A stretch of 38,747 nucleotides of DNA from Azolla caroliniana (taxonomy: Eukaryota; Plantae; Polypodiophyta), in contig JBHGNT010000292.1 of NCBI GenBank assembly GCA_043228905.1, forward strand, positions 1 through 38,747, given 5' to 3'. The translations under genes were made by a program, and so were the position numbers. The notes beneath the pieces were generated by a model. That model was not told the DNA's origin. It saw only the letters and a program-made list of their open reading frames with translations, and did no database searches. Every line of letters begins with the position of its first letter. Position 1 is the first letter of the stretch. This document shows positions 889-30,600 of the stretch, in pieces.

Positions 889-1240
889 TGAGCCCTTCCC
901 AAGCCCATGTTCTGTCTTCTTCCACAAACTCCCCCCATGCTGATGATCCACCTATTTCCGCAAGCCCTCTTGGGCTGATGTTCTGTCAGTTTCTGCGAGT
1001 CCTTTCCGGGCTGATGTTCTGTCTGCCTCTGCAAGCCCTTTCCAAGCCGAAGTCCTGTCTTCCCCCACAGGCCCTTTTTGGACTGATGTTCTTTCTGCTT
1101 CTACAGCTCATTCCAGGCAGATATCCCATCCGTTTTTGTGAGCCTGCTCACTCTGGGCTGATGTTCTATCCGCTTTCTCGAGCCCACTCTGAGCCAATGT
1201 TCCATCGGCTTCTGCAAGCCCATTCTAGGCCAAATTCCCT
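889..1240. repeat. Degenerate ~36-bp minisatellite (about 10 units) in a GC-richer block, possibly an LTR-retroelement remnant
   Basis: Units such as gcaagccctcttgggctgatgttctgtcagtttct (960), gcgagtcctttccgggctgatgttctgtctgcctct (995) and acaggccctttttggactgatgttctttctgcttct (1067). They produce the 12-aa periodicity in ORF 888..1457. Confidence 0.7.
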
Positions 1241-2460: not shown

Positions 2461-3420
2461 TAATGGAATCATCTGTATACTTCAACACAGCATGCATAAC
2501 CATGAAAGAGATATATTGACACAAAAGAACTATCAAAAACTAAAAGTGAAATACTAGAGGATTTAAAAATTGAAAACAGGTTACAGTGATAAGATTGGAT
2601 GCAACTGCGTTGGAGTAGAGAATAGCTGTGTAAATTATTTTTTAATCATCCACTGCAAAAAATCGAAGGTAAAAAAGGTTGAAAGATCAAACCTGAAATT
2701 GTTCTTTTTTTCATGGTGCGGAAATCGGCCCCAGCTTCTTGTTTTTCGCAAGGGATTGACCAGCCCCTAACTGTCCTGTCCACTGGCAATGTTGTCTGGG
2801 ATCTCCTCATCCTATTTGAACCATCTGATGTTTGATGGGCATTTGCGACACCATTTCACATCTCCCCCCACTTTTCCAGCTTTCCTTGTGATTATGGATT
2901 TAAGCATTTTTATTGAGTGAAACAATTTCACTATTACAACTTATATTACATATATGAACTATTTATTTCATGTCAATTCATAAATTTTTTACATCTAGAT
3001 GAGTAAATATATTACAATCTACAATTCTTCATCTTCTATATCCTTTACAAAGAGTTTACAGGGAAAATCTTGCACAGATTCCCAAGACGATAGACTTACC
3101 CCAATTATGTATTTTATTATAGCAAATGTATACTGTTATATATTAATATGATTCAGATTTAGGGCTGTTGCCTGAATTGGAAAAACAAATACTTATCACC
3201 TAGAATGTATAATCTGTCTACAAATTTAAGTATATGATAGAACCTAAGATTGGAGATTTTGGGATCAAGCTAAACTTGCATGTAGTAAGTCAAATAATCT
3301 TGAAAAATGTGAACAGAGATATTGTAGAAGTTTTATCAGTCAACTTCTTGGAAATTTATCAGTTATGTCACATGATTGTGGCTCTATTGTCCTCCTTTCT
3401 TATATCTGTTCTGTCTGCAG

Positions 3421-5491
3421 GCATGGCTTTTAGCCCTGGTGTTTCTTCCATCTCGATCACATATGGCAGTTCGCGTGGGCATTGTGGCTTTTCTGACAGT
3501 AGTAACTATATGCTTCCTTCCGCGCAGGACGTGGCAAGTATGCTTAACAGATTGAAATCCAAACAATTTAGTTTCATTGAAGTATTTAAGAGTTAGAAAT
3601 ACCAAAATTTGCACCACATTTATCTCTATATCTCACATCACCTGGACCTGAACAAGAACTATTTTTCAAATGCAAGAGAATGCAAATTAGTAATAATAAT
3701 GTAGTTCATGGTAGGATTGTAAATTGCAGTATATAGGGCCTGTTAGCTTTCCAAAGAACGTTATCTACATTTAGCTTTACTACATTCTGTCTGTGTCTGC
3801 AACTCAAAGTGAAGGGGTATAGTTTTTTATTGCAGATGCTGTCTTTTGCTTTGCTGTCATGTAAAATAATATTTCTATTTTTCTTGCAGGATCAACTAGG
3901 AAGAATGGCATTCTTTTCTGGTTTACTTCTTTTAATGGTTTCGTTTGGAACAGATGGTGTGCCTCCTCTAGTTCAGACACGGACGCCACCACCAGCAATG
4001 TCTTCGCTTCCAGCGATACCCCCAAAACTGGGGGGCTATTCATATGTAATGTGGAAGTTTGGGCCCTTTCAACTAACTAGGAAAGGCTTGACACTGGGCA
4101 TCACTGCTGCATGCTTATCCTTCACTGTGAGAATTCTTATCTGCTTATCCATCATCGTTTACTGCAGGTTTTCTTTATTTCAAAAATTCAATGCTGGAAA
4201 AAAGTACAGTTTCCTTTAACTTCGATGCAAAAGAAAATACATTTAATGTACCTTCTGTATTGAGAAGATGTACTGTTGTATAGGTGCTTCAAAGTGCAAG
4301 TTTGTGCCTAGCAACAACTATGCCTGAACATTTAGCGGCAGGTCTGCGATGGTACTTGTCCCCATTTATATGGTTGAAAGCCCCTGTAGATGAGCTAGTT
4401 CTCACACTCCTCCTTTCACTTCGTTTTATTGGACTGGTCTTTGATGAGGTAAGCAAAAGATTTAGTTATGTAACAATGGGCTACTAGAAAATATGCTTTA
4501 TGTGAGATTCGTCTATTTTTTATTTACAGGTTCGAAACATAGCACTAGGAATAGTGGCTCGAGGAGTCATGTGGAAGAAACTAACCTTGCTAGAAGTAGT
4601 AGATGGTAGGTTTTATTGTGAGTTCCACAATTTCCACATTTTGTCTCTGGAAAAAGTTGCTTGACGTATTCTAATTCTTCGGGGCCATAACCCATGTGCA
4701 TGGATGTTACATTTGCATCCTTCTTCGCATACCCTATCTATTAAAAACAAACCTTAGAAGGGAAAGGAGGTATCATATAGCCTGAAATAGGCTGAAATGC
4801 TTTTAATGGATTTCTGAAATCTCAAAGAGTTCAAATTCTCTAAAAGTATTTTTTTATGCTAACATCTATGCTGTATAATCCAAGTATGTGATTGTTGTGC
4901 TTTATGTATATCACTTTCAACCCCATGTTCTATAGCCATCCAAGCTTGTACCTAGTTTCTGTAATATTTTTCATAAATCCTAAATGTAATTCAGTATGAA
5001 GAAATATTACATGTGCTATTTAATTTTTCTAATTTTAGATTTTCTGTGCTTTCTATTATTGGTGTACAATTTCATAGTTAATCAGCATTCTTCCTCTTTT
5101 CTGAAACAAATAAAAAACTAATGATGTTGTCATTCTTATTTGCAGTATTCTTTATGTTCTTTGGGCGTATTTTCAAAAACCTCTTTAATCATGCAGAGCA
5201 AATAGCTCAGGTAGGCTCAAATAGTGCTGTGCTCTTTGTCTTATGCAAACTGCATATGTTCAAATATTCCTACAAATCATGGTATGGTCGGTTGTGAAAA
5301 TCACATAGTTCTTGACGGATTTACTCATTCTCTTGCAGGCCATGATTGCTCGGGGGTATAGGGGAAATCCAACAACACATAAAATTTATTTTTTGGCAAA
5401 ATTTTCATTGAAAACACAAGACTACTTAGCAATTGTAGTCTTGGCTGTACTCATAGGGATGGGCCTGCTCTCAGAAGCCATATTATGCTGA
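3421..5491 (+). CDS. ABCI12: Plastid ECF-type/CbiQ-like transporter transmembrane subunit (ABCI12 homolog), 5'-partial
   Basis: GT-AG exons 3421-3537, 3890-4126, 4284-4448, 4530-4605, 5146-5210, 5339-5491 join in frame: AWLLALVFLPSRSH..DQLGR..QTRTPP..GPFQLTRKGL..LQSASLCLATT..LLLSLRFIGLVFDEVRNIALGIVARG..IFKNLFNHAEQIAQAMIARGYRG..stop. This matches Arabidopsis ABCI12 as I recall it. No upstream exon was found in 1-3420, so the 5' exons probably lie outside the window. Confidence 0.9.
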
Positions 5492-7610
5492 TAATTATGG
5501 ATTCTTAAAGGGGCTCCTACTCGTCTTTGTTATGCATCATGATATAACTCTTTAGATGAGAATGGCGTACTCTTAGCAAATGCATCATACCCTATGTTGC
5601 CTCCAAGGCTTGAATACCATATGATGCATCGATTGAGACTATTGAGTTACTGATTATGAATGCATCAACGAAGTGCATAATTGGCAGAAATGAAGGTACA
5701 TTCAGTTCTGAATGTTGCTCACTATGTATGTAGTCGGGTTCAAGTCTCATGATATGTATACCAATTTAATAAATGCCACCGGAATGATGGGTTTAACGCA
5801 AGACCAATTTAATCTCCGTTGTCAACTTTTCCAATTGGGTAACAACACTTTCTCCCTCTCTTTGACAACATTCTCATCTCAATGGCCTAGATAATTTTGG
5901 TTGATACCAAGGCCTCATAGATGTGTATTGATAGCAATACTACGTGCATAAGCCCCAATTGAATGAGCTAAATGGATACGAACTGTTAAGTTTTCAGATA
6001 AAGCTAAGGTTGGAAGTGAAATGGTGTCTCACATAATAATACTTTTCTTTGGAAGAGAGAGTTAAAAATAGAATCTTTATCATCCATGTTGAGGAGCTCA
6101 TTTGGCATATGGGGTTGAGATTTTAATGAATCTTGTATGTTTTTTCTTGCTAAGAAGTGTTTGCTACTGAGTAGCAATAATCCCCCTTCTTAGCTAAATA
6201 ATAATAATGCATTCATATTTTGCTCAACCTTATAGACAATCCTCTATGGCACCTAAGATATGGTGTTAGATTGATAGATTTGTATGAGATCATACCAATA
6301 ATAATTGTAAATATGATGCCATATGCCAATGGAGAGGACATTCCTAGAGCATGTGGTATGTTATAACATCACCTAGAGTGGGTAACCCTTGACGCCATAA
6401 CACAATGGAGAGGGTCTTCATTTAGAATGTGGGAAGTATAAAGAATTTACACGAACATCTATCTTGACATACAAACATGGATTTGATCGCACATTTCAAG
6501 CTCCTTGATCAAATATTAATCAAGGCCTTGAATTTGCTCATTATTTTACATTACAATAACAATGATTTGAAGAGATACAATTCAATGAAAAGTTTGTGAA
6601 AATGATTGTATGCTTAATGAAGGCAAAGGTGTACTCATCTTCACTTTGTAATGCCAATGATAATGTGGTGACCTTGACCACATGTGATCTACTATGGCAA
6701 GGCCAAGATGCTTAGAACTTATTGGGTAGAGGTTAATTTATAGTTCATGGAACTTGAGGGTTGCAAGGATAACAGGTCGCCATAGGTCCAACATTTCGAT
6801 TTCATCCCATCCTAGGTAGGAACCTCTTTGTCATTTTTCAATTTCGTGTGAGCGTGTGGTTGTGATTTTATGGTAATAGTAGTAGTCGAAACTTTAAACT
6901 TGGGAAAATAGATTTTAAGCAAAAAAACCCTACCGGAAGCAACAAGGAATGAAATGTTGTGGACATTGAGTGTTCATAGTGTGAAAGTCATTTGCTATAT
7001 TCATATTGTCCATTCCATTTAGATGATTTTATTCTCTTCATTTGATCGTTTACGTAGGGAATTTGTAACTAATTATTGCCCTATCTTGTTATAATCAAAA
7101 TGCAAAGACATGACATTTGTTGCATTTGTTTTGTTCATAACAACATTTTTTAGAGTATTTGTATTTCCATCACGTGTCTAATGGAGTAACTTACACTGTT
7201 CCGTTTTCCTCATTGGACTATTTAGGCAGGGAAGCCACAACTAATAATTGTGACAACTTCTCGAAGGCATAATGATAAACAAGATAACATAAACGTAATG
7301 AAAAAGGGAATGAACTAAAAACTCTAACTTATTATACTATACGAAACTCCCTTGGGTGCCCTTGTTGGTATGGGGATACATATATATCCCTCACAAGAGA
7401 AGTGTGGATGGGCTTGATACCCACTCATGCATTGCAATGTTCGTGAAAGAGAGAGTGTAAAAGAATTTTTGCACATATTAGCCCTCCCTTGATACAAAGT
7501 AGGGGTAGTTTTTAGAATTCCCCAAAACCATGAAATGATGAAGATTTAGTTGTCCAAATTATTCAGCCATAATACAGTTTTTTCATACGAAGTGACTGAG
7601 ATGAGACTCC

Positions 7611-10088
7611 ATGTTCTCTTCCACAGACACCAAGTCCTTGTGGGGCCCATCCAACTCCTTCGGAAACCCTGCATCTCTGAAGCTCTGTCTATGGCCATCT
7701 TTAAAGATAAACCCTAATTCCTCAGACTTCAGGCACAGACAAACTGGAAAACCTTGCTGGGTCCATGCTGGGTCCAACCCACCGTTTGCCAGAAACGAGT
7801 TGAAGGAGCTCAGCTTGCTTCATTCCACTGGCAAGCTGGTTTTTGATAACGGGCTTCCGAAGAAATTGCGGTTCCATGATCATGTTAGGATTTTGAATCT
7901 CATAAAGTCATGCCAGAAAGGGAAGAACATATGGAAAACTCGACGAATACATGCAGATGTTCTTGAAAGAAACTTGATTGCAAAGGATGTTTACATTGCC
8001 AATGCTCTTATCACAACATATGGCAAGTGTGGTTCACTTCAAGAAGCACTGGAGGTATTTGAACAGATTCCATTGCGGAATGTAGTGTCATGGAATGCCC
8101 TCATTGCAGGATATACCCAAAATGGGGTCGGTGATGAAGCACTGAAATTATTCAAACAAATGAAGGATGCAGGAATCCGTCCAGATGCTGTAACTTATAC
8201 TTGCATTTTGAAAGCTTGTGGAAGCATAGGGTCTCTGGAGATCGGGGAAGGAATAGATGCTGAGGTTAGAGAGCAAGGGTTATTGGAAAAAGATGTTGTG
8301 CTCAGTACTGCATTGTTGGACATGTATTCTAAATGCGGGGTTCTTGATAAAGCACGAGAAGTATTTGAGCAACTTTCAGAGAGGAATGTTGTGTGTTGGA
8401 ATGCCTTAATTGCTGGATATGCTCAAAATGAGCTTGGTTATGAGGCGCTGAAATGCTTCAAACAGATGCAAAATGAGGGTATAGATCCAGATGCAGTAAC
8501 TTTTATCTGCATTTTGAAAGCTTGTGGCATGGTAGGGTCTCTAGAGATTGGGGATAATATTGGTGTGAAAGTCAGAGAGAAAGGGTTCTTGCAGAAGGAT
8601 ATCATGCTAGGAAATGCATTACTGGACATGTATTTTAAGTGTGGTGCAATTGAAAAAGCACAGGAAGTGTTTGAGCAGCTTCCAGTACAAGATATTGTAT
8701 CTTGGAATGCCCTCATTTCTGGATATTGCCAAAATGGTTTTGGTGATGAAGCATTGAAGATTTTCAGACAAATGAAAAGTGCACGAGTTTGTCCTGATGT
8801 TATAACTTATATCTGCATTTTGAAAGCTTGTGGCCTTGTGAAGTCTTTAGAGATGGGGGAAAATGTATATGTTGAAGTCAAAATGCAAGGGTTATTGGAG
8901 AAAGATATCGTGCTTGGAACTGCATTGTTGGATATGTATTCTAAGTGTGGTGCAATGGGGAATGCAAGAGAAGTGTTTGAGCAACTTGCAGTGCGGGATG
9001 TTGTGACTTGGAATGCCATGATTTCGGGTTATAGCCAAAATGGACTCGGTGATGATGCGTTGAAATGCTTCAGAGAATTGAAAGATGCAGGAGTCAGTCC
9101 AAATGCAGTAACTTATATTTGTGTTTTGAAAGCTTGTGGCATTGTGGGGTCTCTAGATATCGGGGAAGAGATAGATGCCAAAGTTCGAGAGAAAGGGTTA
9201 CTGAAGAAAGATGTTACTCTTGGCAATGCATTGGTTGACATGTACTCCAGATGTGGTGTGTTGGAGAAAGCAGAAGAAGTGTTTGAGCAGATTCCAGAGC
9301 GTAATGTTGTGGCTTGGAGTTCCCTTATTACTGGATATGCCCTGAATGGGCTTGGCAATGAAGCATTGAAATGTTTCAAGCGAATGAAAGTTGCAGGAGT
9401 GTGTCCAGATGAGGTAACTTATGTCTGCATTTTGAAAGCATGTGGCATTACGGGGTCTCTAGAGGTCGGAGAAGATATAGTTGCTGAAGTCAGAAATCTA
9501 GGTTTGTTGCAGAACAACGTTGTACTTGGCACTTCATTTGTGGACATGTATTCAAAGTGTGGTGTGTTGGAGAAAGCACGTGAATTATTTGAGCAACTTC
9601 CTTTGCGGGATGTTGTTTCTTGGAACACCCTGATCTCTGGATATGGCCAGTTCGGTCAAGCTAGTGTAGTTTTTGACCTATATGTGACAATGAGGGCTGA
9701 AAATATTGTTCCAAATTCAGCTACCTTCATTGTTTTGTTGAATGTGTGTAGTCATGTAGGTCTGATTCAGGAGGGAGAAAAGTTGTTTGATGAAATGTGT
9801 ACTGTCCATTGTCTCACCCCAACAATAGATCACTACACTTGTATGGTTGATCTATTTGGCCGTGCAGGGCTCTTTGACAAGATTAATGTGTTTCTTAATG
9901 GTGTTCCCCATTTATGCCATCTTCCACTATTCCAAAGCATATTGGGTTCTTGTAGAAAATGGAGAAATGTAAAGCTTGGGAGATGGGCATTTGAACAATC
10001 AGTGCAATTGGATGAAAAGTGTGCTCCTGCATATATCTGTATGGGAAATATATATGCAACAGCTGGAATGCAAACAGAAGCAGAATGA
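7611..10088 (+). CDS. Intronless PLS-class pentatricopeptide repeat protein (organellar RNA-editing factor type), ending within E2
   Basis: 825-aa ORF with a transit-peptide-like N-terminus and P-L-S triplets at exactly 102 aa/306 nt spacing (W of the WNALI-type motif at about 8091, 8397, 8703, 9009, 9315, 9621). These are followed by P2-L2-S2 (HYTCMVDLFGRAG), E1 (ILGSCRKWRNVKLG) and a partial E2 (AYICMGNIYATAGMQTEAE*). Confidence 0.95.
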   Translation: MFSSTDTKSLWGPSNSFGNPASLKLCLWPSLKINPNSSDFRHRQTGKPCWVHAGSNPPFARNELKELSLLHSTGKLVFDNGLPKKLRFHDHVRILNLIKSCQKGKNIWKTRRIHADVLERNLIAKDVYIANALITTYGKCGSLQEALEVFEQIPLRNVVSWNALIAGYTQNGVGDEALKLFKQMKDAGIRPDAVTYTCILKACGSIGSLEIGEGIDAEVREQGLLEKDVVLSTALLDMYSKCGVLDKAREVFEQLSERNVVCWNALIAGYAQNELGYEALKCFKQMQNEGIDPDAVTFICILKACGMVGSLEIGDNIGVKVREKGFLQKDIMLGNALLDMYFKCGAIEKAQEVFEQLPVQDIVSWNALISGYCQNGFGDEALKIFRQMKSARVCPDVITYICILKACGLVKSLEMGENVYVEVKMQGLLEKDIVLGTALLDMYSKCGAMGNAREVFEQLAVRDVVTWNAMISGYSQNGLGDDALKCFRELKDAGVSPNAVTYICVLKACGIVGSLDIGEEIDAKVREKGLLKKDVTLGNALVDMYSRCGVLEKAEEVFEQIPERNVVAWSSLITGYALNGLGNEALKCFKRMKVAGVCPDEVTYVCILKACGITGSLEVGEDIVAEVRNLGLLQNNVVLGTSFVDMYSKCGVLEKARELFEQLPLRDVVSWNTLISGYGQFGQASVVFDLYVTMRAENIVPNSATFIVLLNVCSHVGLIQEGEKLFDEMCTVHCLTPTIDHYTCMVDLFGRAGLFDKINVFLNGVPHLCHLPLFQSILGSCRKWRNVKLGRWAFEQSVQLDEKCAPAYICMGNIYATAGMQTEAE

Positions 10089-10578
10089 ATGAAAGAAAGA
10101 AATATTAACGTCTTTAAAGAAGCCAAAATGGCCTAGACAACCAAAAAACATCTTAAAATCATGTCATGTATTTGAGAACAACAAACCAAATTAAATGTAA
10201 CGAAGTGAAAAAGTAAATAGAAATAGAATAAGACATGACTGAAGAATGTCGTCATTCATACATGTAAGATTCTCAAGTTAGATATATTGTAATTTTGTTT
10301 TCGAAATATCACTAGCATAGGTCAATCCAGAATGGAGAGGCCTCCGAAATGAGGGAAGCACATGTGATGTAGGAGATGATGGCTTTTATCTGTTGATGAC
10401 ATGGGTGGTGAGATCGTGGTCCACAAGGCCGTGGCCTACTTGCACGGAAAATTGCTATTGCCTGATCTATTGTAACCCCTTTGCAATGTCCTGGTCAGAA
10501 GCCCTCTTGTGTAGCCTCTTGATTGACTTGTAGCTTGAGTAGGAGTGATGGGGTTAAAGAAAGTTGTGATTGTGCTTT
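10085..10578 (-). mobile_element. 5'-truncated LINE 3' fragment (494 bp) inserted in the PPR gene, flanked by a GCAGA duplication
   Basis: Begins with the reverse complement of the family tail (atgaatgaaagaaagaaatattaacgtctttaaagaagccaaaatggcc). GCAGA occurs at 10080-10084 and 10579-10583. The body matches the copies at ~34290-34410 and ~37560-37995. Confidence 0.85.
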
Positions 10579-11013
10579 GCAGATAGAATTGAAAGTACGA
10601 GAGTGAAAAATAAATCATGGAATCAATACAAGGGAATTGCTGGTAGACTGATATTGATAAGAATGTCCATTCGTTTGGTGTAGCTGATCAGGGCCATCCT
10701 GAAAATACATATTTATATGTAAAGATGGAAGAGATTCATGAGGGACTAGCTCAAAGGGGTTATTCCTAAGGTTTGCATTGTATTATATCAAAGGTTGTTA
10801 CAGATCATTAAAATGAGGTCGTGCCAGTGGCGGTAGTGAGAATCTGCTCTGATTCATGAACCTGACCGTGTGCCTATGCATATATGTACCAAGATCATGC
10901 ATATTTCTGATGTCTGACATTCTGTGGCTTCTCAATGCTACAGAAGAAGATTTAGGTAAATGATTCAAATCATGTTCTTTTTTTTTAATGTGGAACCTTT
11001 GGTTCACTGTTGA
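10579..11013 (+). pseudogene. Orphaned, decayed E2-end plus DYW (WW-type) deaminase domain of the upstream PPR gene
   Basis: Reads ADRIESTRVKNKSW / QGNCW*TDIDKNVHSFGVADQGHPENTYLYVKMEEIHEGLAQRGYS*GLH.. / GGSENL / LIHEPDRVPMHICTKIMHISDV*HS / QKKI*VNDSNHVLFF*CG. This is the PG box, HSE, CxxC and DxxRxHxF order of a DYW domain, with stops and frameshifts. Confidence 0.8.
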
Positions 11014-11261
11014 TGTTGATGAAGTCAGATGAACCTGCTGATGAGCAAGCATTTTTTCCATCCTGGCATTAATTTACAACTTGTTCATGCGAGTATATGT
11101 TTAGTTGATATCATATTGTGTAATCTCATTGACCATGTTTGAGTTATTGACTGTTAAAGACAATGTGTTATGAATAATTGTTTGCATACATATGTGTGAA
11201 TCATGGGAAAATGCTAACAGTGTTCACATTCTTGAGATGGTAGAGGCATCTATGAAAACGG

Positions 11262-11643
11262 GCACAACACCATGTGTCTAGGGAGATATATATTTATTGC
11301 CTTTTCTATGTTTTGTTTATTGTAACAATATGTCAGTGACTGATTTATGTGTCATGGATAAGTCGTGTAATGTATTTGAACTATAGTATAGCTATTCCCA
11401 TTAAAAACCTCTCAAGTTAATGCCTCACTTAAGCCAATAGATGGCGGATAAGTCGAGCACAACACCATGTGTCTAGGGAGATATATATTTATTGCCTTTT
11501 CTATGTTTTGTTTATTGTAACAATATGTCAATGACTGGTTTATGTGTCATGGATAAGTCGTGTAATGTCGTTGAACTATAGTATAGCTATTCCCATTAAA
11601 AACCTCTCAAGTTAATGCCTCACTTAAGCCAATAGATGGTGGA
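11262..11643. repeat. Near-perfect tandem duplication with a 195-bp period
   Basis: gcacaacaccatgtgtctagggagatatatatttattgcc...cacttaagccaatagatgg starts at 11262 and 11457, with only a few substitutions. Confidence 0.95.
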
Positions 11644-11959
11644 AAGGATACAGAAGCAATAGAGAGTTCTGTGGAGTTTCCTTGGGAAGAAGAGGAGGAA
11701 GCAGAGTTAAACAGAACCCAGTCACCCGTCAACTTGTTGACAACACAAAAAACACCATTTTCCTGCCACTGGCGAGAAAGTTCCTATACTGACAGTATCC
11801 ATGCAAAATCAAGAGCTGTTGTGAGTGTTGTTGGAGGGACATCCTGGCATAAATGTAATCGGTGAGGATATGTGCAATTCGTTCAGATTTACAAAATGAG
11901 AACATTCTCCATTTTTGGTCGGAATGGCGGATCAAAGGGTAGTCCAACTATTGTGCATA

Positions 11960-14157
11960 ATGATGTGAGAAGATCTCTATTTGAAATATCTGCATTTGTA
12001 TTGCAACTTGGATCTAGAGATGCATACTTGATGCTACTCAAGGATCATGGTCACAAAATGGGAAGAGAGTTCTATTCACAATTATATCAACTGGAATGTT
12101 ATTTGGACATATTGTCAGCAAGAATGGGATTGTAACAACTCTAGGAAAGATGAACGTAATCCTAGAATCTCCAGCATCAACCAATGGCAAGGAGCTTTCC
12201 AGGTTCCTTGGACAAATCTGCTGGCACAGTAGGATGCTGCACACATCCTACTGGGCCATACCTTTGCACACATCAATGCATTTGCGAAAGAGGAAACAAC
12301 ATTATAAAGAGATGAAGGTGGTGTTGTCACTAGCTCCAGTTGTGCAACCAATGGATTGTAGTCGAGAATCCCATGTATTTGTCAATGCATCCAGCACAAT
12401 AATCATAAGCATATTAATGCAACTCTACAACCAAAAGTGGTATAAACCAGTGGGTTATGCCAAAAAACGTTTTCTTTCGATGGGGACCACAATGTATTCT
12501 TATACAGGGTAACCAAATCCGAATTGATAGGGATGCTCACACTGGATTTTGATCCTCCAGAAGATTGAATCTGCAATATTCTGTATGTCTAAAGATCTTC
12601 AGGTTGTGGCAGATTATTTGGCTACATTGGAAATTGGTGAGGCGAGACTCCAAAGTCTCAGACGACTTCCCCAATGGAGAAACCATTTAATCTTGAAGCA
12701 GCATCTTCAAGGTAAACAAGACCACGCATAATGATTGACAGATCCTCGATATGATGTTCTTTCCAGAAAACAGGAATAATTTGCTACAATGGATCAGATC
12801 GGAGAAGGTTGGTTGGAAGCACTGGGAACTTTGCTCTATCAGAGGGAGATTTCTATCAATGTTGCTGCATGGTATCTGGTTAAGGGGCAGTTTTTAAGCA
12901 TGAAAAACAGAGGGTATTCAACAAGGCACATGAATCCATAGTGGGCAGGAACTTAATCAGAAAATTGTACTTCCCGAAGCTTGACTTTTCACTTGAGGAT
13001 GTACTTGCCCCGACATGGAAGTAATCCTGGATAGCAATGGGCCCGGTTCGGTTTTGGTTTCTTGGCCTTGAAACCAAACCAAACCATTTATTAATAATAA
13101 AAACCGAACCAAACTGTTTAATTTTTTTAAGCCATTTAATTTAAACCAAACTGTTTAAAGAATAAGAGAAACCAAACTGTTTACGAAAAATTTAAAACCA
13201 AACCATTTTTTATTGATATTAATCATCATACTATTTATAAATTTGTGTGAGAAAATCATCATAAAATTTTGTCATCATGCTTATCATAAATGAAAAGGAG
13301 ACTCTACATATAATGCATATAAAATTCAATAAGTTAAAACTAGAGTTTAAAATTAAAAGTTGAAAGTTACAGCCTATAAGGAAAATTTATGAGTATTTTT
13401 TAACCTATAAACCTTTAAACCAAACCACATAAACAGAAACCGATAAACTACTAAACCGCTCAATTCAAAACCGATTAGTAACTTTTGAAACCAAACCAAA
13501 CCGTTTATTTATCTTCGAACCTATAAACCGTTAAGCGACAGTTTTTCGGTTTGGTTCGGTTTGAGCCGAAACCGGGCCCATTGCTAATCCTGGAGGAAGG
13601 GGAGACAACATCATCTCCATAACTATATAACTGTCTCCTTTTTCCTATGAAAATAGGCAAATGGGAATGTTTTTGAGGTATTTGATCTCACAGTAACCAT
13701 GGGACGTGAAGCATTCATGCAAATTGTGTGGGTGGTTTTATCCGCAATTGCACATGATATAGCCACAAGTCATAAAGCAACTAGAAGAAGGGTTCATTGT
13801 CAAGGCTTCATACTTATGCTTTCAATTGGTGAACCTTAAGTGTTTTGGTGATTATGCAATGAGAAATTTCAGCCAATTTTAATTTAAGAGGATCTATCTA
13901 ACAACTTCTTTGCCATTGAGATTACATACGAGAGCAAAGTTATGTATTTGGTCGGCGTGCATGCATTGAATGATTTCACACTGTGGCGTGACTTATGGGA
14001 ACTATTACATTTGCATCTTACACTTGTTGTACCTGGTTTGTTCATGGGGGTTAAACATGTGTGGATCACTATCAATGGTCCTGAAAAAGCTATGATTGCA
14101 ATGCACTTGCATCAATGGTTCTTAAATTGGATTTGTGTTATTGGCAACAACCATTAG
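11960..14157 (+). mobile_element. Decayed Ty3/gypsy LTR-retrotransposon pol remnant (RT C-terminus, RNase H, probable integrase); boundaries approximate
   Basis: ORF 12096..12512 reads LFGHIVSKNGI..ELSRFLGQICWHSR..LSLAPVVQPMD..HVFVNAS..PVGYAKK, the gypsy RT thumb/RNase H signature. VADYLA follows, then fragmented coding-like sequence. Confidence 0.75.
13032..13586. mobile_element. Non-autonomous hAT-type MITE (555 bp)
   Basis: Perfect 17-bp TIR TAGCAATGGGCCCGGTT (13032-13048 and 13570-13586). 8-bp TSD ATCCTGGA at 13024-13031 and 13587-13594. AT-rich core with many subterminal AAACCA/AAACCG motifs. Confidence 0.95.
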
Positions 14158-15039
14158 AGCAAGGCTACCATAGAAATTGGTTTTGACATAGAAAGAAAAT
14201 AATTGTTGACCTTTGAAGAATAATTTCCATTTCTATGCTCTTATGAACATAAACATGTGACAAGAAATCAAATAAACAAATTAAATAAAACAATGGATTA
14301 CAAACGCATAACATGTCAAATCACCCTCTAGCAAAGAACTAGATAGAGTTTAACACAAAACCCCATCTATGTCCTATATTGGTGGATTATGGTCTTGTGT
14401 GATCCTTGGAAGTTAGCTATTTAGTGAACCTAGAAGACAAGAGTGTTGCCTCACTGATAACGAGTCAAAGCCTCTTGAGATATTGTATTAAAGTGGGTAG
14501 CAAGTTCCCTTTATATAACTGAACTCGTTAGTCTCTTGGACCATCGCATATCCTACGTCCTTATGGGTTTGTTTCAATTCCTACAATAATCAATTTCTCA
14601 CTTACTCTAAATTCTTTAAATGAGCATTTAGAACTGTTTCATAAGGCTAGACAACTAAACTCAGCATGCCCTTTAAACATCCATGGAGGTCTCTAAGTAT
14701 AATATATAAAGGTTTTATGTTTTAGAAATATGCTTCAATGTTCGCTATACTTTAGCAATAGAAACGAGAGGTATGAAAGTTTCATCTCTATCAACTACTC
14801 ACCTAAATACCATGTTAAACTTGTTAAAAAGTAATGATATCGCAAAAACTCATAGATTTTAATTGATCTCAAGTTCTCAAATAAGTAATTGAAATAACTC
14901 AAAATTATTTTTTGCGTTATTCCATAACCCTAACGAAGTCTCAAAACACACCAAATGCTCCCTGAATGAATTGTGATTTAATAAATCCTTTGATGCATAA
15001 TGATCCAACCATTATTATCCATTAATTTGCTTCCAATCC

Positions 15040-21600: not shown

Positions 21601-24600
21601 CTCCTTGGCACATTGTTAGTAGAGGTGTGGAGCTATGGAAGAAGTCATATGCTTTTAAAGTTTGAGCACATTCGACTTCTTCCCTATTTGTTTTGTCAAA
21701 TGAAGGAGCTCATGTATAGAATAGCATATTTCTCTCAGACGTGCTTGTAAGCTGGGCACCTATGTATGAGATGGTCCTTGCTTTTGATTTCTCCTTGACA
21801 TACATCTTTCAGTTCTAGGTATGTGAAGGGCTTGTCCTGCTTTAATCTCTATTTGGTCGGTGTAAACTGTAAGTTGGCCTATTTCTTGCAAGCACTATGT
21901 GGCATGTAGATGTCCATGTCCCTCAGTTTGTGTATGAATCCATCCTTTGAAAAGTCAATAAAATTATCTTCGCGGGAGGCCATCTTTAGGGGAAGAGGCA
22001 CCATTGGTGTGACCCAAGTCTTTTAGGTATAAACCTGCCATGGATCTTGCCATAATATCTTCTTTCATTCGTCATTTTGTAGAGTTGTACAATATCAAAA
22101 GGATGGAAAGTTCTCGATGTTGAGGCCATATCAACTGTGAATACCATGATTCTTCTGCATGTTCTGTTGTCACCATTTGCATTGATGCTTCAGTGTAATT
22201 CTTTGAGCTGGCATGGTTTGAATCTGGTTGATGAAGCACACTATCTGGGATAATGCTTCTACCATCATAATGGGTGTTGCCAATTCAGCACAAATGATTT
22301 CATGTGGTGTGGATGCTTTGTGTGCATCATCCATGTCAACATCATTACTAGTGAACTCTCTAGTTGTGTCCACATGTACATGGGGAGGCTTGGAGCCCAT
22401 ACAGCTGTATTGTAAATGAGAGCAGGGTTGACTGTGGTGTTGAATTACCATGCTTGTGTGCCTTGTGGCATTGTATCATGCTAAGGTGGCATAAGGCTTG
22501 AGTTGATCCTTGGCAACCTGGGTTATAGAGAAGCATTCATTTGTTCGTGTACATGTGACTCCCTAGATATCCATAGGAAGCCTCTACGTCAACTTACCTT
22601 GATGATGGGGGGACTGCAAGTCGATGTGGATTTATGAAAGATCAAGATATTAGTTTTTCCTAGGTTTACCAAAACTCTTTTTGCCCTGTGAAAGCCATAG
22701 GGCATTGAGATGTTGCAGCCTGCATGATATTGACACCAAGATTCTGTCATCAGCATAAAAGACATGAATCAATTCTCTTGCCGCCTCCACATCAGATGTA
22801 TTCCTCTACCCTGTTGATGTGCAGCCTGAAGAGGGTAGAAAGAAAGAAAGAAAGAAATATTAATGTCTTTTAAGAGGCCAAAATGGCCAATAAGACCAAA
22901 CAAGAGATTACATTGTAAGTGTTGTCTTGTCTTTGAGAACAAAAAATCAAAAGTTTTTTAGGTCGATCCAGAATTGAGAGGCCTCTGAAGCGAGGGAAGC
23001 ACCTGCTATGGCAGGAGAGCTACAACACTCTGTCACACAAAATGGTCATGACCTCAGGGAGCCCATCCACAACCTCACTCTTCTCAAAAAGATAAAAGCG
23101 TTCATGGCTGGTCATAGGAGTTGTAGGCGACATTACTGTAACACATCACTGGTCATTTTGGGCTTTCGTAGGCGAGAATATTACTTTCTTTCTTACACTG
23201 TATTTTGGCTTAAAATAAATAAATTCTCTCATTTCTTATGAGTCGATATATCAAATCTAATGTTGATACATAGATGCCGATTTATGGTAGATTGGAAATG
23301 AATAGGATATCCAACAGAAATGCTATGCCATGCCATTCGTACTACAAAGTTTTCAAACCGAATTTGATCAAAGACTATCTTGATACACTGCATGCGAGTA
23401 TAAATTATCTAATGGCAGGAAAAGCTCTTAAACCATGAATTCAACTCTCTGCTGTCGTGAAGTGCGTGTCATACATGCGCGGAGAAGGACTGGGCCTCTA
23501 AAAGATGGTTCAAAAGGATTGTTTTTATCAAGATAGGTCTGAACCCACAAACTTTGCGATAGATTAAATAATCTCCACCAATAAACCAAAACAATCCTTG
23601 AATATTTATCTATTTATTTATACATATTAAAATTTCTAACTTATAGATATTGAACGACTTAAATAAATATACTCGAATGGAAAGAAGATATGATTATATT
23701 AATTTATGTGAACTTAAACTTCAAATTTCAACCCTCCTTTTGAGATTTTTTGCACCACATTGCTCTTTTATTTTTTGAGACATGGATATTGATTGTTTTC
23801 TCTCTTCCCCCTTTTAATATAAGATGAGAACACCTTTATATAGGGTCTCACATGCATTAAGGTCTAATAGATTGTCACCACTTAGTGCTCATGCTTCAGC
23901 TGACTTACAATAATTTTATTGACTATGTATTTAAGAATGTAGTATGTTTTTAACATATGAAATAGTTATCTTAGTGATACTTATATTCCTTCAAAGAGGA
24001 AGGGTATTGAGTTCGAAATACGCTCTTTGTGTTTATTATACATTAGATAAGTTACTTGCTTTGGAGGTGGTTTCCGATCGTGTGCCATTGGCAACACAAC
24101 ATAGTTCATATCATTGCAGTCAATTGCCTACTATTTTTTATTCACATTTCTCAATTGGTGCGTTGAATGCTTTGAATTCCCCCGAGGTATTATGTTTTGA
24201 AAAATAAAATTGTCTGTGAGTTGAAACCTCGAATCTGATTGTTTAAAATGCATTCTCTACTCTGACCTCTCACCTGTCTGGCCATCTATGTATAATGATA
24301 AAGTGGTTGATCGTTTCAAATGATGCATTGATGTTTCTCAATGAAATTATTCTTCACTTCGATTGCAGGTGGGCATTTATTGATTTAAGTGCAGGACCAT
24401 TTTCTTGGGGTCCATCTGTTGGTGGTGTGGGTGTAAGAACAGAACATACTCTACCCTCTGTCGATAACCTGCTGGCAACCCTTTCTGGTAATGATGGTAT
24501 ATTCTGATAGCCTTTAGATAGTAGTATAATGTTGCTTATGTATCATTATAATTTTATTCTATTTATAGATTCTTCTGAAGATGAGGCACATGATGATCTT

Positions 24601-27600
24601 TCCAATCTTGTTGAAGAAAGATTTTCAGTGTTTGACGAGGTAACTTACAAACTAATTTAAGAATCACATGTATATGCAATGCAAGAGTTCTTTTAATTCA
24701 AGATGAAGAAGGATGTCAATATTTAAACATAGGAATAAATAAACAGATACTTCTAAGCATGCAGGTATAGATATAACTCAGTGAAGTGAAGAACTAACCC
24801 TAGCTGTCTGTAAAATTCCTATAATTCAATATGTTAATCCATATGGCTAACCTGTGTACATCATTAATTGCACCACTCTTTCCTGTCCCACTCGTGGGGG
24901 TAACTAATAGATGCTAGATCACTCTTAAAAATATTTGAAGGCTTTCATATGCAAAGGCACATTTGTGTAATGTTTAAATGAAGAAGAAAGACACTTATAT
25001 TTAAAACTAACATTATTTTATTCTGGTAATGTTGAATGCACTGTTGAATTTAAAACTCCCATCAAAGGTTCCTGTGCACCTGAGTTTTCCACGGCAATAT
25101 TTTATAAATAATATTGTTTAGAAAAACAATTTTTAGGAAATATCTTTTAAAATTGTCAACATGCCCATATATGCTGTTTTCAAGTCATCTCTAACGCATT
25201 TACATGGTGCTTGAGTCAAATAACTAGCTCCTGCAATCTTTTGATTGTGCAGGAATCTCCCCATGCAGTTGATACACTCCTTGCGGAGATAGACATTTAT
25301 GAAGTCTTCTCTCAAAGACACTGTGAAGGAAGAAGAGTGAAAGTTGCACTTTGTGATGGTATCATCGATGCAAATTTCCTTTCATACAATTTTTTATATT
25401 ATTTTTAATGTTTTTATATGAAGATAGGTTCTCTGACTTATTGTGATGATCATATGCTGCAAGGGTGTAGCTACTACTTGACCCATGTAATGTATATATT
25501 GTAACGGCCCAAATAAGACATTGTAGGCATGCCAATTACACTGAATACAATGTCAAAAATTATAACATGCATTATTCCTAAATATTTGGATTGTCTAGTC
25601 CATTATAAAGACTGATACGTAAGCCAACAGCCAAAGAAAAGTTACTTAGCAGTGGAAATTATAGTGATACTAAATTTTGCAGAAAGTTTTCTGGTGAAAG
25701 AAATATATATTGATGTCTATCAAGAGATCAAAATTGCCCCTAAGATCAAGTAATAGATTCCATATGTTGTCTCATCTTGGAGAACAGCTAATCAAAATAC
25801 ACAACTTTGAAAATAAGACTATTAATTTATGTTGATATAAATTGATGAAAATGCGGGGTTGATAGTATTCTCATCCATTAAATCTAGAAAATATATGACT
25901 TACAGATCGACAAACATCTGACAAAATCCACAATTGGTTTATTATATATTTTGAATAGTTTACTCTAATGGCACTATAGAGGAGTAAGCGATTCCTTATT
26001 ATATAGTATATGAATCATCTGATAAAATGATATTGTGCGCACTTTTTGACCTCTGTATAAGTGTGATGTGATTATTATAATGCTTCAGCAAGCAGTACCT
26101 TTGAATGTCTGGTATTTAGTTGTGCACATGTATTTTGCGACTTGTAAGTGTTTTTTAATCCTCACAACTTCAAGCAATGACTATTGTGAGATTGACATTT
26201 GGAAAAGAACTTGAATCTTTATACTGCCTAAGCCAAAACAAACTATATTAATGGGGATTGAAAGTTGCATTATTTAAGATAAGAAACTATTAGATGACAC
26301 ACATGTACGATTTACATTTGCTACAAGGTTTGTTTATAAGGATAACTCTGTTGAGATGTATACCATACATGACATTAACTTTCGGGATATACTGCCAGAG
26401 ATTGATGCTCATTGCATCTCTGGCATTATTTTAAACGGAATTGTTTGATTATTCGTGGCAACAGTCTAAAATTAATAATTTAATAACCTTAAAAAAGTGG
26501 TGACACAAATTTTCTCTTCAAGAAGCTTGTGAAAGTTTACTTAGATGACCATTCATTGAACAACTTGTCTTTTACTTACATGATTCAACATGCAGAACTT
26601 CAAGAGAGAATGGGGGACTTGAAAGAAGAACTACAATTTTTGCAACAGGAAAATGTAGAAGAAGCTCACAAGAGAAAGGCAGAAGAGGCATTGAAACGAA
26701 TAGAGCGATGGAATCTCTTCAGCGATGCCCATGATGTTCAGGTGTGTCGGCTTTGTTTACGCTAATTCTCTATTTTTATAATCATGAAATTTGTGAGAAA
26801 ACTGCTATGAACATTTGTAAGGTGCCTAAGAGTCTAGCAACAGCTTAAAGATAAACTAAAACAAGAACTATGTTTCTTAGTGATGCTCAAAGACTTTAAA
26901 TACAAAAATGAGAGTGTTCTTTGTATCATATGCATTTGTAAAATATTCCTGGCTCATAATGAGTTGTAGTGGGAGAGTGGAGGGAAAAGAGCAATGTAGT
27001 AAATGCTGTATGATGTAGTGGCTAGTTCAAAAAGTCGAGTGAATACGGTAGACAGGAGAAAGAAAGAAATAAAGATATATTAATGTCTTTTAAGAGGCCA
27101 AAATGGCCTATAAGACAAAACAAGAGATTACACCTTAAGTGTTGTCTCGTCTATGAGAACAACAAATCAAAATAAAATAAATATTACTAAGTAAATAAGT
27201 TTAGAAGAGACTAAAAGAATCTGGTTTTCGGCACATGTAAGATTCTCTAGTTAGATATCTTGTAACTTTTGTCTCTAAAAGATCTCTAGCATCGGTCAAT
27301 CCAGAATGGGGAGCTGTCACCCTCCAACAAAGATTGGATGTGTTCTCTGTGGATTTATTTTCGGCATATGGGTTTTTGAAGATAACTTATCTAAACATAC
27401 ATTTTGCAGCAGATTGGTAACTTTTCAGTTGCTCGAGATTGGTTTCTTGCAAATTTGGCAGCTACATTATGGTCTTCTATGAAACATGTCATCACACCAT
27501 CAACTGCAGATGGTGCATTTCATTATTATGAGAAGATTGACTTCCAAATCTATGTAATTACTCAAGAGGTAAGTTACATGGATTTCAGCTACCTTTACAT

Positions 27601-30600
27601 GTGATAATGTAGAAGTCAAGTAACATTTGTATTGTTTCCCTTATACTTGATGTTATTTTCATGATTATTAGAACTGATTCTATGCATAATCTATTTATTA
27701 TCTCTTTTTGAGAACTAGAATCTGTATGAAATTTCATTGTGATGCACTCTGTATAAAAAGACTTTACATTTTCTGAGGAATAAAAGCATTCCACATTAAT
27801 ATACATTTGGGGGACCAGAAATAAAACCACAAACACCACAATTCCCAACTTTTTGTGTATATGTGAGTGCCAAATGCAAAAGAAAGAGGCAGACCATGTA
27901 AATGTCAAAAACTAAATCTCAATTTCATACAGAGGGAAATCCACTCTCAAATTTTTTATATCAACCACCATATGAGTAGGCTGTACTATGAAACACACAA
28001 TCTAGTGTTCGGAAAGCAAATCCCTTGCCCCTTACATGTAGCATACTACCATATAGTACAGAAGGGGAATATGAAGACACAATCATCGATTGGAATGCGC
28101 ATAACTGCGTTGTACTAAAATACGGCACCAAGGGTCATGTTAAAACAATGATGCCTGAGTAGCACATGAGTCAAAGAAGAATTATGAATGTTAAAATGAT
28201 GTCCATATAGTACACGTATACAAGAAATAAAATAGATTGGATGCAAAAAAATCATTGGATAATTGGATAAGTCAAAAGTGGCTCGGAACACATGATGAGA
28301 AGGATGAGTGAAAAAAGAAGAAGATCGGAAACAGGCATCTCTTTGTTGACAATCTGGATACACTACCTTTAAACTAACAGATCACTAGCATAGAATTATC
28401 TTCTCTACAGTATCCAGTATTATTTTATGGTGTGTTTGGAAGAGGCATTGTACTCAATATTCTAGGTAAGATTATTCACTCATAGAGGATTCAGTGGGAT
28501 GCTTCCGCTGGCTCAGGAAAGGCAGCACAGGAAACATGACAAAGTTTCATTACTACCCAGTGGCATATTCGCCTATTCTCCATCTGGCCCCTTTGAGACT
28601 TTGTCTGTTAGTACACTCAAATGTAGTAGCTCATTACACATGGCTTTTATTAGCTAATATATTTATAGGAATTGTATATACTCTGTACAGTTATTGGAAT
28701 TAGGATACTTGACTGATTTGGTGTTCGATGGATATTGAACTAAACAATATTTGACTAAGATTTGTTTGTATAAGCAAGAGCATAGCTGGGATTTGCATGA
28801 TAAGTGTACGAGATGCTTTCTTAATAAAGATGGATTTTGAAGTTCTTTATGGATTCCATCATAAATGAGGATAACATAATTAATGATGATAAGATAATTA
28901 CAAGGAACAACCATTTTGTAATTCCTAATTCTGTCTCATTTCTCTTCTATCATTTCATTCCAGGCAGCTTCATATTTTGAAATTCTAGAACCTCTTGTAT
29001 GGTCCATATCTACATGTGTGTGGGTTCTTGTAATTTAATTATGTATGAATCATGATGAAATGAGTAATGACATGTGTGTGCCTTCACACTATATTTATTC
29101 TGGTTTATGGTTCTCAAAGATGAACAACATTTTAAGATGTACTGCTACTCAGTCTCAAAGACTGTTGTGGCCTCTTAAAGAAGTTAATATTTCTTTCTTT
29201 CTTTATTGTTACAGAAAGTCAAGCACAAGGATTTGTTACTTATGGATGTCAGCTTGTTCAAAGAAGCTCTGGCTGGAGTCATTGCACCTGGTCAAAAAGT
29301 GCAATATTCTATACGAATGTATATTTCTTTTTCCCTTTTTGGCATTGGGTAATTGTACATAAGTCACAATAAAATTGCATGTTGGACAAAGAAAACCATG
29401 CAATAATTGCATGCAAAGAAGGTTCACATAGGCTATGGTGCTCAACTGCCATGACGGAAACCTGCCAAACAGCTTGTATGACTGTACATGCACTCAGTAT
29501 AGAAGATTTGGTGTAACAATGTAGTTTGTGGTTCTTGGGACTGTATATGTGCACACTGTCCTTAAGTGGTACCAATTGCTGGATATCCATGAGAAAGTTG
29601 AGCACAGGCTTCCCCTTGTAAGGAAAACAGACGCTTCATGAATGTTGGTCCTAGATATGTGTAGGATAGTGTATATGCCACCTTTTCTTCGCCCAAAAAC
29701 ATTCTGGTTCTGTTCTCGTTAAAACACAATTTTTCAATGTTGACCAACAAATCTGTATTTAGATTGAAGAGAGCGGGTGCGAGTAGTCATCCTTGTTTTA
29801 CTCCAATCCTGCTAGACACAACCTTTGACAAGCTATTGCACTTTTCCTGACACTGATTCATATAGAACATAGGTTCCCTAGTGTATATCTATTGGGACTC
29901 AAAAGGGCGTCTAGTCGATCTGTAAGCTGTGCAATGGTACAGTGTCAAAGTACTCAAAAAATCCACATCTTTTTATGGACATTGCGCTCATAAACAAGGA
30001 TTTGGAGGGTCAAATCTGCGATTCAAACTTGCAAACCTCTTTTGATGTATTTGGGGAAATGTTATCTTTCTCCGGTCTCTGCATGGATTCAAGCTCTATT
30101 CTCACAAACTTCTGCTCACATGTATGACTAATGGCTCAACTGGATTTCAAAGAGAAGTTTTTTGATAAAATTATTGTGGCATTCTCATATTCAAAATAAC
30201 ACATTTACTAATGAGTTTTGTGTTCGAGTGCATTTGGCAATCATGTTTGGTTTTCTACATATTCAATTGAAAAGAGAAATACATACATGATTTGGCCTTC
30301 AGATTTATTTCCTACGTTTATATTTTTACATTTGAATTTTTTATTATGCAGCAAGTTTGAGGTTTAAACTTTCTTGTGCCTGATTTTACAGGCTAGCTTT
30401 GTCTGAAGATACTGCTTTGTCAATGGCATTTTCTGTAGCCAGAAGGGCAGCTGCTGTGCCTGTTCTACTAGTTAATGGTACCCACAAGACCACAACACGA
30501 TTATATCTCGATTCTCTGATTCTACAGCATCAGCTTCAACATTTAAGTGGGAGTGGCTCAGTGCTAGGTAGTGTAATATTAATATCCAAAATAATTTACT

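What the first reader, a model, noticed from the sequence alone, without database searches (positions are those of the whole stretch)
10579..11013. Fossil DYW:WW deaminase beside an intact PPR array: birth of a deaminase-less editing factor
Seen: the domain has in-frame stops at 10644 (likely TGG>TAG in CWWTD), 10767, 10809, 10915 and 10953, several frameshifts, and eroded HSE (GSE) and CxxC (SDV*H) motifs within ~430 nt. The upstream 2.48-kb ORF has no lesion. Established: DYW domains catalyse C-to-U organellar editing, WW-type PG boxes occur in seed-free plants, and angiosperm E/E+ PPRs recruit DYW donors in trans. Inference: the truncated PPR has remained under selection long after losing its catalytic domain. 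It may work with a trans-acting deaminase, or have become an RNA stabiliser or blocker.
Basis: partly seen in the sequence, partly recalled or inferred. Interest (0 to 1): 0.85.

Follow-up and report, generated by a model that had tools for sequence, protein, structure and literature searches.

The report
Transposon-clipped fern PPR with fossil deaminase
A fern-type gene for an RNA-binding protein, likely working in chloroplasts or mitochondria, is cut short by an inserted repeat and trails a decayed copy of its RNA-editing enzyme end, while the binding part stays conserved and likely borrows the enzyme from another protein, a common state in ferns.

Summary
The fossil is real. 10579-11013 is a decayed E2/PG-box/DYW tail, with all five stops confirmed, a sixth at 10986, and at least four frameshifts. 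A 495-bp dispersed repeat (10085-10579, flanked by GCAGA duplicates, likely a 5'-truncated non-LTR retroelement) splits the E2 motif and supplies the stop codon, so the ORF is clipped, not lesion-free. An orthologous contig (L001) carries the same insertion. Against it the PPR array has dN/dS 0.20 and the remnant 1.09, so selection on the array outlasted the deaminase. The state is ordinary in ferns: 46 of 60 named fern homologues end between E2 residue 13 and a partial DYW. Trans-acting donors are already proposed for ferns, and a truncated, still-selected PPR with a 3'-UTR remnant was published for CRR21 in 2012. Best model: a DYW-less specificity factor using a donor deaminase (0.55). Fresher leads: truncations pile up just after E2 helix A, and a second array (L013) acquired this repeat-capped end. 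The scan noted a similar deaminase-lost gene in a foraminiferan. Transcription is not shown.

The parts
7611..10088 (+). PLS-class PPR ORF, 825 aa, intronless; its stop codon (10086-10088) lies inside the inserted repeat
7611..7880 (+). N-terminal extension of about 90 aa, likely an organellar transit peptide (inference; no predictor run)
   Evidence: in 7611-7773 it has 12 non-synonymous and 2 synonymous differences to run X2
7989..9920 (+). PPR array S-(P-L-S)x5-P2-L2-S2, preceded by a degenerate L-like motif; all 12 P/S/P2 motifs carry NN, ND, TN, TD or SD at positions 5 and last
   Evidence: Pfam PPR_2 E=8e-117; 306-bp period
9921..10022 (+). E1 motif, complete (34 aa)
   Evidence: Pfam E_motif E=1.8e-4, 22.1 bits, below the cut-off of 27.3, profile positions 2-40 of 63
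10023..10084 (+). 5' part of E2: helix A with Asn9 and the start of helix B (about 20 of 34 residues)
10080..10084 (+). left copy of the 5-bp direct repeat GCAGA (likely target-site duplication)
10085..10579 (-). 495-bp dispersed repeat with a (TTTC/ATTC)n 3' tail and a truncated 5' end; likely a non-LTR retroelement, family not established
   Evidence: no Pfam hit, no Rfam hit
10580..10584 (+). right copy of the GCAGA direct repeat
   Evidence: GTAGA in L001
10579..10625 (+). orphaned 3' half of E2 (ADRIESTRVKNKSW), ending in a +2 frameshift
10626..10817 (+). fossil PG/WW box and N-terminal DYW region, stops at 10644, 10767, 10809
10820..11013 (+). fossil catalytic half of DYW: GSE for HSE, SDV*H for CxxCH, stops at 10915, 10953, 10986, frame breaks near 10818, 10844, 10933

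Best explanation
This is a fern-type PLS-class PPR gene whose E2 motif is split by an inserted repeat that supplies its stop codon, leaving a neutrally decaying DYW deaminase remnant downstream and a conserved array that likely still marks an organellar RNA-editing site for a deaminase supplied by another protein. SHOWN: the split, the remnant, neutral decay of the remnant, purifying selection on the array, and retention of the RNA-contact residues S2-Arg13, E1-Arg12 and E2-Asn9. INFERRED: organellar import, RNA binding by the PPR code (predicted 5'-YUnAUnUUnGYnYGnGYnn, ending 4 nt before the edited base; code recalled), recruitment of a complete DYW donor that must bring its own PG box, and C-to-U direction (the lost domain was not of the KP type). 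Also inferred: the cis deaminase was already dispensable in this gene clade, so the insertion was tolerated rather than creative.
For: (1) Removing 10085-10579 rejoins E-A-D-R-I-E in frame between GCAGA duplicates. (2) L001 has the same insertion; against it the ORF shows 12 synonymous and 7 non-synonymous changes plus one in-frame 3-nt deletion (dN/dS 0.20, p=5e-4) and the remnant 7 and 24 (1.09); Fisher p=0.007. (3) Runs X2 and X10 give 19:10 and 14:9 synonymous to non-synonymous (40 of 64 rows were shown). (4) Residues that contact RNA next to the edited base in the consensus PPR-DYW structure (PMC13324415, passages) are kept here and, among 92 truncated homologues, are Arg in 81 of 92 (S2-13) and Asn in 57 of 88 (E2-9). 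(5) Of 113 homologues, 92 end between E2 residue 13 and a partial DYW and only 5 end before E2 residue 13. (6) Salviniales have far more PLS proteins than DYW proteins, and trans donors are proposed (PMC12548569, section 13). (7) In angiosperms PPR-E proteins recruit complete-DYW donors such as MEF8 and PCW1 (PMC11897456, passages).
Against: No target site, donor or editing was observed. [quoted passage not shown] E2 helix B, with RNA-contacting positions 24 and last, and the PG box are lost; the known donors DYW1 and DYW2 need parts from the partner. E1-Arg12 is Arg in only 29 of 92 truncated homologues. Run X4 gives 9:13, dN/dS 0.40-0.56, not significant for kappa>=2. X2, X10 and L001 share many differences and are not independent. 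None of 19 changed codons falls on a code position, but about 1 is expected by chance, so this says nothing. In vivo trans editing in ferns is a published suggestion, not a demonstration.
Confidence: 0.55

Rival explanations
1. The clipped protein is a non-editing RNA-binding factor. It stabilises, blocks or helps splice an organellar RNA, its editing site having been lost or never needed, as proposed for truncated CRR21.
For: CRR21 truncated in the middle of E, with a 3'-UTR remnant and dN/dS 0.08-0.28, occurs in species that lost the target C (PMC3441922). The long array with canonical code pairs could bind tightly on its own. The PG box and half of E2 are gone.
Against: E1 and E2 helix A, which position RNA at the edited base, are kept, and truncations across homologues avoid removing them. 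Full-length DYW proteins are too few to account for fern editing sites.
Confidence: 0.33
2. The gene is a slowly dying paralogue: selection has relaxed recently and the open frame reflects past constraint.
For: dN/dS against X4 is 0.40-0.56 and not significant for kappa>=2. No run is on record as RNA. The family is huge and redundant (3670 hits).
Against: The low dN/dS is measured between lineages that both carry the insertion and most of the remnant's lesions, so it postdates the truncation. At the remnant's lesion density about 40-57 lesions would be expected in 2478 nt, and none is seen.
Confidence: 0.09
3. The insert is an intron, or the remnant is otherwise rejoined, so that a full PPR-DYW editor is still made.
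For: TTTGCAG at the right junction looks like a splice acceptor and its use would restore E-A-D-R-I-E.
Against: No GT donor pattern lies in 9901-10200. The insert is a dispersed repeat between direct repeats. Contigs run through both junctions unspliced (records 14, 15, 22, 30, 31; RNA status only guessed). The remnant has six stops, four or more frameshifts and dN/dS 1.09.
Confidence: 0.02

Closest known systems
Truncated CRR21 of Thlaspi arvense, Lobularia maritima and Malpighiales (Hayes et al. 2012, PMC3441922)
   Same: [quoted passage not shown]
   Different: CRR21 is an E+ protein without DYW and its truncation went with loss of the editing site. Here a whole DYW domain was cut off, an inserted repeat marks the break, and the target is unknown.
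DYW-less PLS proteins of ferns (Salviniales survey, PMC12548569)
   Same: PLS array without a C-terminal editing domain, the majority state; a trans-acting DYW or DYW:KP donor is the proposed mechanism.
   Different: That section reports counts and sees no obvious C-terminal signature. It does not describe fossils of the lost domain, a mechanism of loss, or a shared end-point after E2 helix A.
Angiosperm PPR-E factors with MEF8/MEF8S or PCW1; E+ factors with DYW2; CRR4 with DYW1 (PMC11897456, PMC10226603)
   Same: RNA recognition and catalysis split over two proteins.
   Different: E+ partners and CRR4 keep a full E2 and the PG box; this protein keeps about 20 residues of E2 and no PG box, so it would need a complete-DYW donor. 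MORF bridging proteins are described as seed-plant additions (PMC13386178, passages).
DYW:WW subclade (basis of RECODE-WW, PMC12684383)
   Same: WW dipeptide in the PG box and one extra residue compared with PG-type domains (137 against 136 aa in that paper); that subclade edits C to U.
   Different: The paper's consensus came from a hornwort subclade; no reference sequence was available here for a tree; this copy is dead.

Membership tests
PLS-class PPR protein | (P1-L1-S1)n-P2-L2-S2 array of 35/36/31-aa motifs | tested here: met
   motif parse; Pfam PPR hits
PLS-class PPR protein | Organellar targeting | not testable with these tools
   only a fast-evolving N-terminal extension was seen
PPR-E (E2) subclass | Complete E1 and E2 motifs of 34 aa each | tested here: not met
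   E1 is complete; E2 stops after about 20 residues
PPR-E+ subclass (DYW2 partners) | PG box and start of the gating domain in the protein | tested here: not met
   these lie beyond the stop and the insert, out of frame
PPR-DYW editor (present-day gene) | In-frame DYW domain with HxE(x)nCxxC | tested here: not met
   six stops, four or more frameshifts, GSE and SDV*H
DYW domain (ancestry of the remnant) | Significant sequence homology to DYW domains | tested here: met
   Pfam single-frame scans were negative
DYW:WW subclade | WW in the PG box and one extra residue against PG-type | tested here: met
   L001 reads TGG TGG; 16 residues from the PG position to HxF against 15 in P0086, counted by eye; that WW names this motif is recalled
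DYW:WW subclade | Falls in the WW clade of a DYW tree | not tested
   no labelled WW reference sequences were at hand
DYW:KP (U-to-C) subclade | HAE active site and missing xHP (PMC9478123) | tested here: not met
   the remnant has Ser before Glu and keeps GHP
Non-LTR retroelement (insert) | Dispersed copies with a common simple-repeat 3' end, variable 5' truncation, target-site duplication | tested here: met
   four other window copies share the tail end; GCAGA flanks
Non-LTR retroelement (insert) | Reverse-transcriptase ORF (LINE) or tRNA-derived head (SINE) | tested here: inconclusive
   no Pfam hit on the insert or on two longer neighbouring copies; no Rfam hit
Trans-DYW specificity factor | Needed for editing a site and interacts with a DYW donor | not testable with these tools
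   needs genetics and interaction assays

The most novel reading that the evidence does not exclude
Fern DYW-less PLS proteins are a distinct 'half-E2' class. They arise repeatedly by stops, frameshifts and retroelement insertions, are viable only if cut after E2 helix A, and that helix with Asn9 is the missing C-terminal signature that seats a full DYW donor. A repeat-capped half-E2 end can also be copied onto unrelated arrays by recombination (L013), turning them into donor-dependent editors.
Probability: 0.3. Interest if true: 0.65.

Novelty: new member of a known kind. Interest (0 to 1): 0.35.

Why it matters
Ferns have thousands of editing sites but few full-length editors, and how the DYW-less majority arose and finds a deaminase is open. 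This gene keeps both halves and the break, so a before-and-after comparison is possible: clipped protein alone, with candidate donors, or fused to an intact fern DYW domain. The pile-up of truncations just after E2 helix A gives a concrete hypothesis for the docking unit. As a single gene it is ordinary; its worth is as a clear example.

Tried and rejected
(1) No genome is held for the window, so no genome-wide paralog count or donor search was possible. (2) Pfam found no DYW, E or E+ family in any forward frame of 10500-11101 or in 10626-10820. (3) The word-based protein search with the 40-aa piece found nothing. (4) A search with the P0111 tail gave only 2 proteins of 1922 candidates, so the DYW sample near the remnant is small. 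(5) No RNA holder was listed in the run search; eight holders are only guessed to be RNA. The four runs have no cover at 7400-7550, just upstream of the ATG, which is not used as evidence. (6) No joint skipping the insert was among the 15 of 860 joints shown, which is inconclusive; no uninterrupted ortholog was found. (7) Intron reading of the insert: rejected (see rivals). (8) The idea that the window's array was grafted onto another gene's remnant: rejected, because the array groups with P0111 and P0121 (99/95, 23 rows) while L013 falls outside (only 92 columns). (9) Rfam gave no hit in 10000-11700; Pfam gave none on the repeat or its neighbours. (10) No structure or complex prediction was run, as no donor candidate is known. 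(11) No organellar genome of this plant could be searched for the predicted target. (12) Literature searches that found no description of a repeat-clipped fern PPR-DYW or of the half-E2 end-point; one search found no paper with the phrase DYW WW. Gutmann et al. 2020 was not read (known only through citing papers and recall) and may already describe the E2-truncated fern class. No supplementary files were read. (13) A whole-window Pfam annotation did not run.

Full report
OBSERVATION. The + strand holds one ORF from the ATG at 7611 to the stop at 10086-10088 (825 aa). It parses as an N-terminal extension, a degenerate L-like motif, S-(P-L-S)x5-P2-L2-S2, a full E1 and about 20 residues of E2. 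Sixty of the 120 listed homologues are named Ceratopteris or Adiantum proteins, and the closest, at 55-65% identity, are unnamed, so the DNA is inferred to be fern. Downstream, 10579-11013 is a decayed E2/PG-box/DYW tail. A frameshift-aware alignment to P0111 scores 190 (53 of 111 identical) against 27.9 +/- 4.1 for 30 shuffles. It places stops at 10644, 10767, 10809 and 10915, and the alignment to P0065 adds 10953; frame breaks lie near 10620, 10818, 10844 and 10933. The stop-free 40-aa piece finds only DYW-bearing proteins: 2 hits in 1.84 billion representatives (P0111 E=3e-5; the other is a repeat-inflated E+/DYW protein) and 2 hits in the PDB. A profile from 9 fetched DYW tails hits 10638-10814 at iE 5e-11. 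Pfam itself finds nothing frame by frame.

Between the ORF end and the remnant lie 495 bp (10085-10579) flanked by GCAGA on both sides. Without them the frame reads E-A-D-R-I-E through E2. The insert matches seven other stretches of the window at 74-83%. Four of them start at the same AAGAAAGAAA-type tail, and contigs of other copies continue past 10579 with a common sequence (loose ends). This is the anatomy of a 5'-truncated non-LTR retroelement on the minus strand. Its family is not established (no Pfam or Rfam hit). The present stop codon lies in its tail, so the ORF is clipped rather than lesion-free.

SELECTION. A scan of metagenome contigs returned L001, an ortholog covering 9240-11352. 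It has the same insertion, shares four stops (10767, 10809, 10915, 10953), has TGG at 10644 and GAA at 10986 where the window has stops, and has its own 1-nt deletion at 10706. Substitutions are 19 of 845 in the ORF, 37 of 495 in the insert, 31 of 434 in the remnant and 19 of 339 downstream. In the ORF 12 are synonymous and 7 are not (dS 5.7%, dN 1.1%, dN/dS 0.20, p=5e-4). In the remnant's former frames the split is 7 and 24 (1.09; Fisher p=0.007; simple counts, no multiple-hit correction). Contigs of three runs on 8391-10135 gave 64 differences, of which 40 were shown: X2 19:10, X10 14:9, X4 9:13. X4 is the weak one (dN/dS 0.40-0.56, p 0.03-0.13), one row (8928) is partly carried by paralog contigs, and these comparisons share history. 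The only indel listed in that stretch is an in-frame 3-nt deletion in X10. Since L001 and the window both carry the insertion, selection on the array postdates the truncation. Transcription is not shown: no run is on record as RNA.

HOW COMMON. Of the 120 homologues, 7 named seed-plant or lycophyte rows were dropped. Of the other 113, 57 end in E2 residues 13-34, 26 at 35-60, 9 at 61-139, 8 have full DYW length, 4 are longer fused models, 4 end before E2, 1 ends in E2 residues 1-12 and 4 lack a match. Among the 60 named fern proteins the first three classes hold 46. Four of those 60 have a DYW-like tail and one has an intact HxE...CxxC. The sample is score-ranked, holds near-duplicates and rests on gene calls. 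In a tree of 60 rows and 92 columns the window falls in a supported 23-row clade (99/95). Only P0111 and P0121 in it keep a full-length tail, reading GYSEN and GHNVK, both damaged. I examined downstream DNA for 39 of 62 loci. Within the clade L003/L007 also trail a frameshifted remnant (E 1e-12, 3e-6), L005 runs in frame into the PG-box region, and L002, L004, L008 and L009 show none. So loss of the cis deaminase is recurrent, fossils are not unique, and the domain was likely dispensable before the insertion. The order of events cannot be fixed without an insertion-free ortholog.

A SECOND USE OF THE SAME END. L013 ends at the same codon with the same repeat. Its nucleotide identity to the window is 12-24 of 30 per block through L2-S2-E1 and 26-30 of 30 from about 10017. 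It carries about 400 bp of the insert at 89% and then DNA matching window 12815-14796 at 84-95% in three pieces, without the remnant. Its array lies outside the 23-row clade. The simplest reading is recombination near the E1/E2 boundary that gave another array the repeat-capped end. It rests on one contig, so an assembly chimera is not excluded.

MECHANISM. In the crystal structure of a consensus PPR-DYW with RNA, S2-Arg13, E1 positions 2, 6 and 12 and E2 positions 2, 9, 24 and last contact the RNA around the edited base, with E2-Asn9 at its phosphate (PMC13324415, passages). This protein keeps S2-Arg13, E1-Ser6, E1-Arg12 and E2-Asn9 and loses E2-24 and E2-last. Among 92 truncated homologues S2-13 is Arg in 81 and E2-9 is Asn in 57 of 88, while E1-12 is Arg in only 29. 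End-points start abruptly at E2 residue 13-14. This favours a protein that still presents RNA for editing and takes catalysis from a complete DYW donor, as angiosperm PPR-E proteins do with MEF8 or PCW1 (PMC11897456, passages; PMC10226603, passages). The boundary could also be a folding constraint, helix A capping E1. The main rival is a non-editing role: CRR21 cut in mid-E, with a remnant in the 3' UTR and dN/dS 0.08-0.28, is found in species that lost its editing site (PMC3441922, abstract and section 6). The remnant keeps xHP and Ser before Glu, unlike DYW:KP (PMC9478123, passages), so the ancestor was likely a C-to-U editor. The WW motif and extra residue fit DYW:WW (PMC12684383, passages), but no tree test was possible.

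WHAT IS KNOWN. A Salviniales survey found that only a small share of PPR proteins carry DYW or DYW:KP, suggested donors in trans, and saw no obvious C-terminal signature (PMC12548569, passages and section 13). PLS, E and E+ forms are regarded as truncated DYW proteins (PMC13386178, passages). I found no paper on a repeat-clipped fern PPR-DYW or on the half-E2 end-point (listings only for papers not named above). Gutmann et al. 2020 and all supplements were not seen and may cover it. Earlier scan notes include a foraminiferan PLS-E gene with a frameshifted remnant (not checked); none were found for this genome or this sequence.

VERDICT. The feature is real and well supported, and the break has a visible cause. 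It is a new member of a known kind. Interest 0.35. The half-E2 docking rule, if true (probability about 0.3), would merit about 0.65.

Noticed in passing
L013:1-737 and onward: A PPR array about 50% identical to the window's in L2-S2-E1 ends in the same half-E2 and the same repeat, then continues into DNA matching window 12815-14796; likely recombination, possibly an assembly chimera.
   Followed up: partly
homologues P0001-P0120: C-termini pile up from E2 residue 13-14 onward; only 5 of 113 end earlier.
   Followed up: partly
L003:979-1180 and L007:1095-1320: Another fern-type PLS gene with a frameshift at the PG box and a DYW remnant behind it.
   Followed up: partly
window 22840-23018, 27060-27313, 29090-29207, 34282-34414, 37568-37996: Further copies of the inserted repeat family. 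Near 33350 a broken frame reads TLVTPTLVYGVET, which from recall resembles the C-terminal part of RTE-type LINE reverse transcriptases; no Pfam hit.
   Followed up: partly
window 11259-11643: Tandem duplication of 195 bp at 97% identity just downstream of the remnant.
   Followed up: no
window 12018-12512: Decayed retrotransposon RT/RNase H fragment (Pfam RT_RNaseH_2 E=1.8e-5).
   Followed up: no
window 3213-5400: Exon-like pieces on the + strand that from recall resemble a plastid ECF-T/CbiQ (ABCI12-like) gene; Pfam gave no hit on the two pieces tested.
   Followed up: no
window 38584-38721: PPR-like peptide on the minus strand at the window's end (MRSEGIEPDVITWNSLIEC), probably another PPR gene (weak hit).
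   Followed up: no
window 960-1233 and 1731-2006: 36-bp degenerate repeats inside a 207-aa open frame, and a 135-bp tandem duplication.
   Followed up: no
P0122: A protein with 11 near-identical E+ repeats before a DYW domain; possibly an assembly artefact.
   Followed up: no
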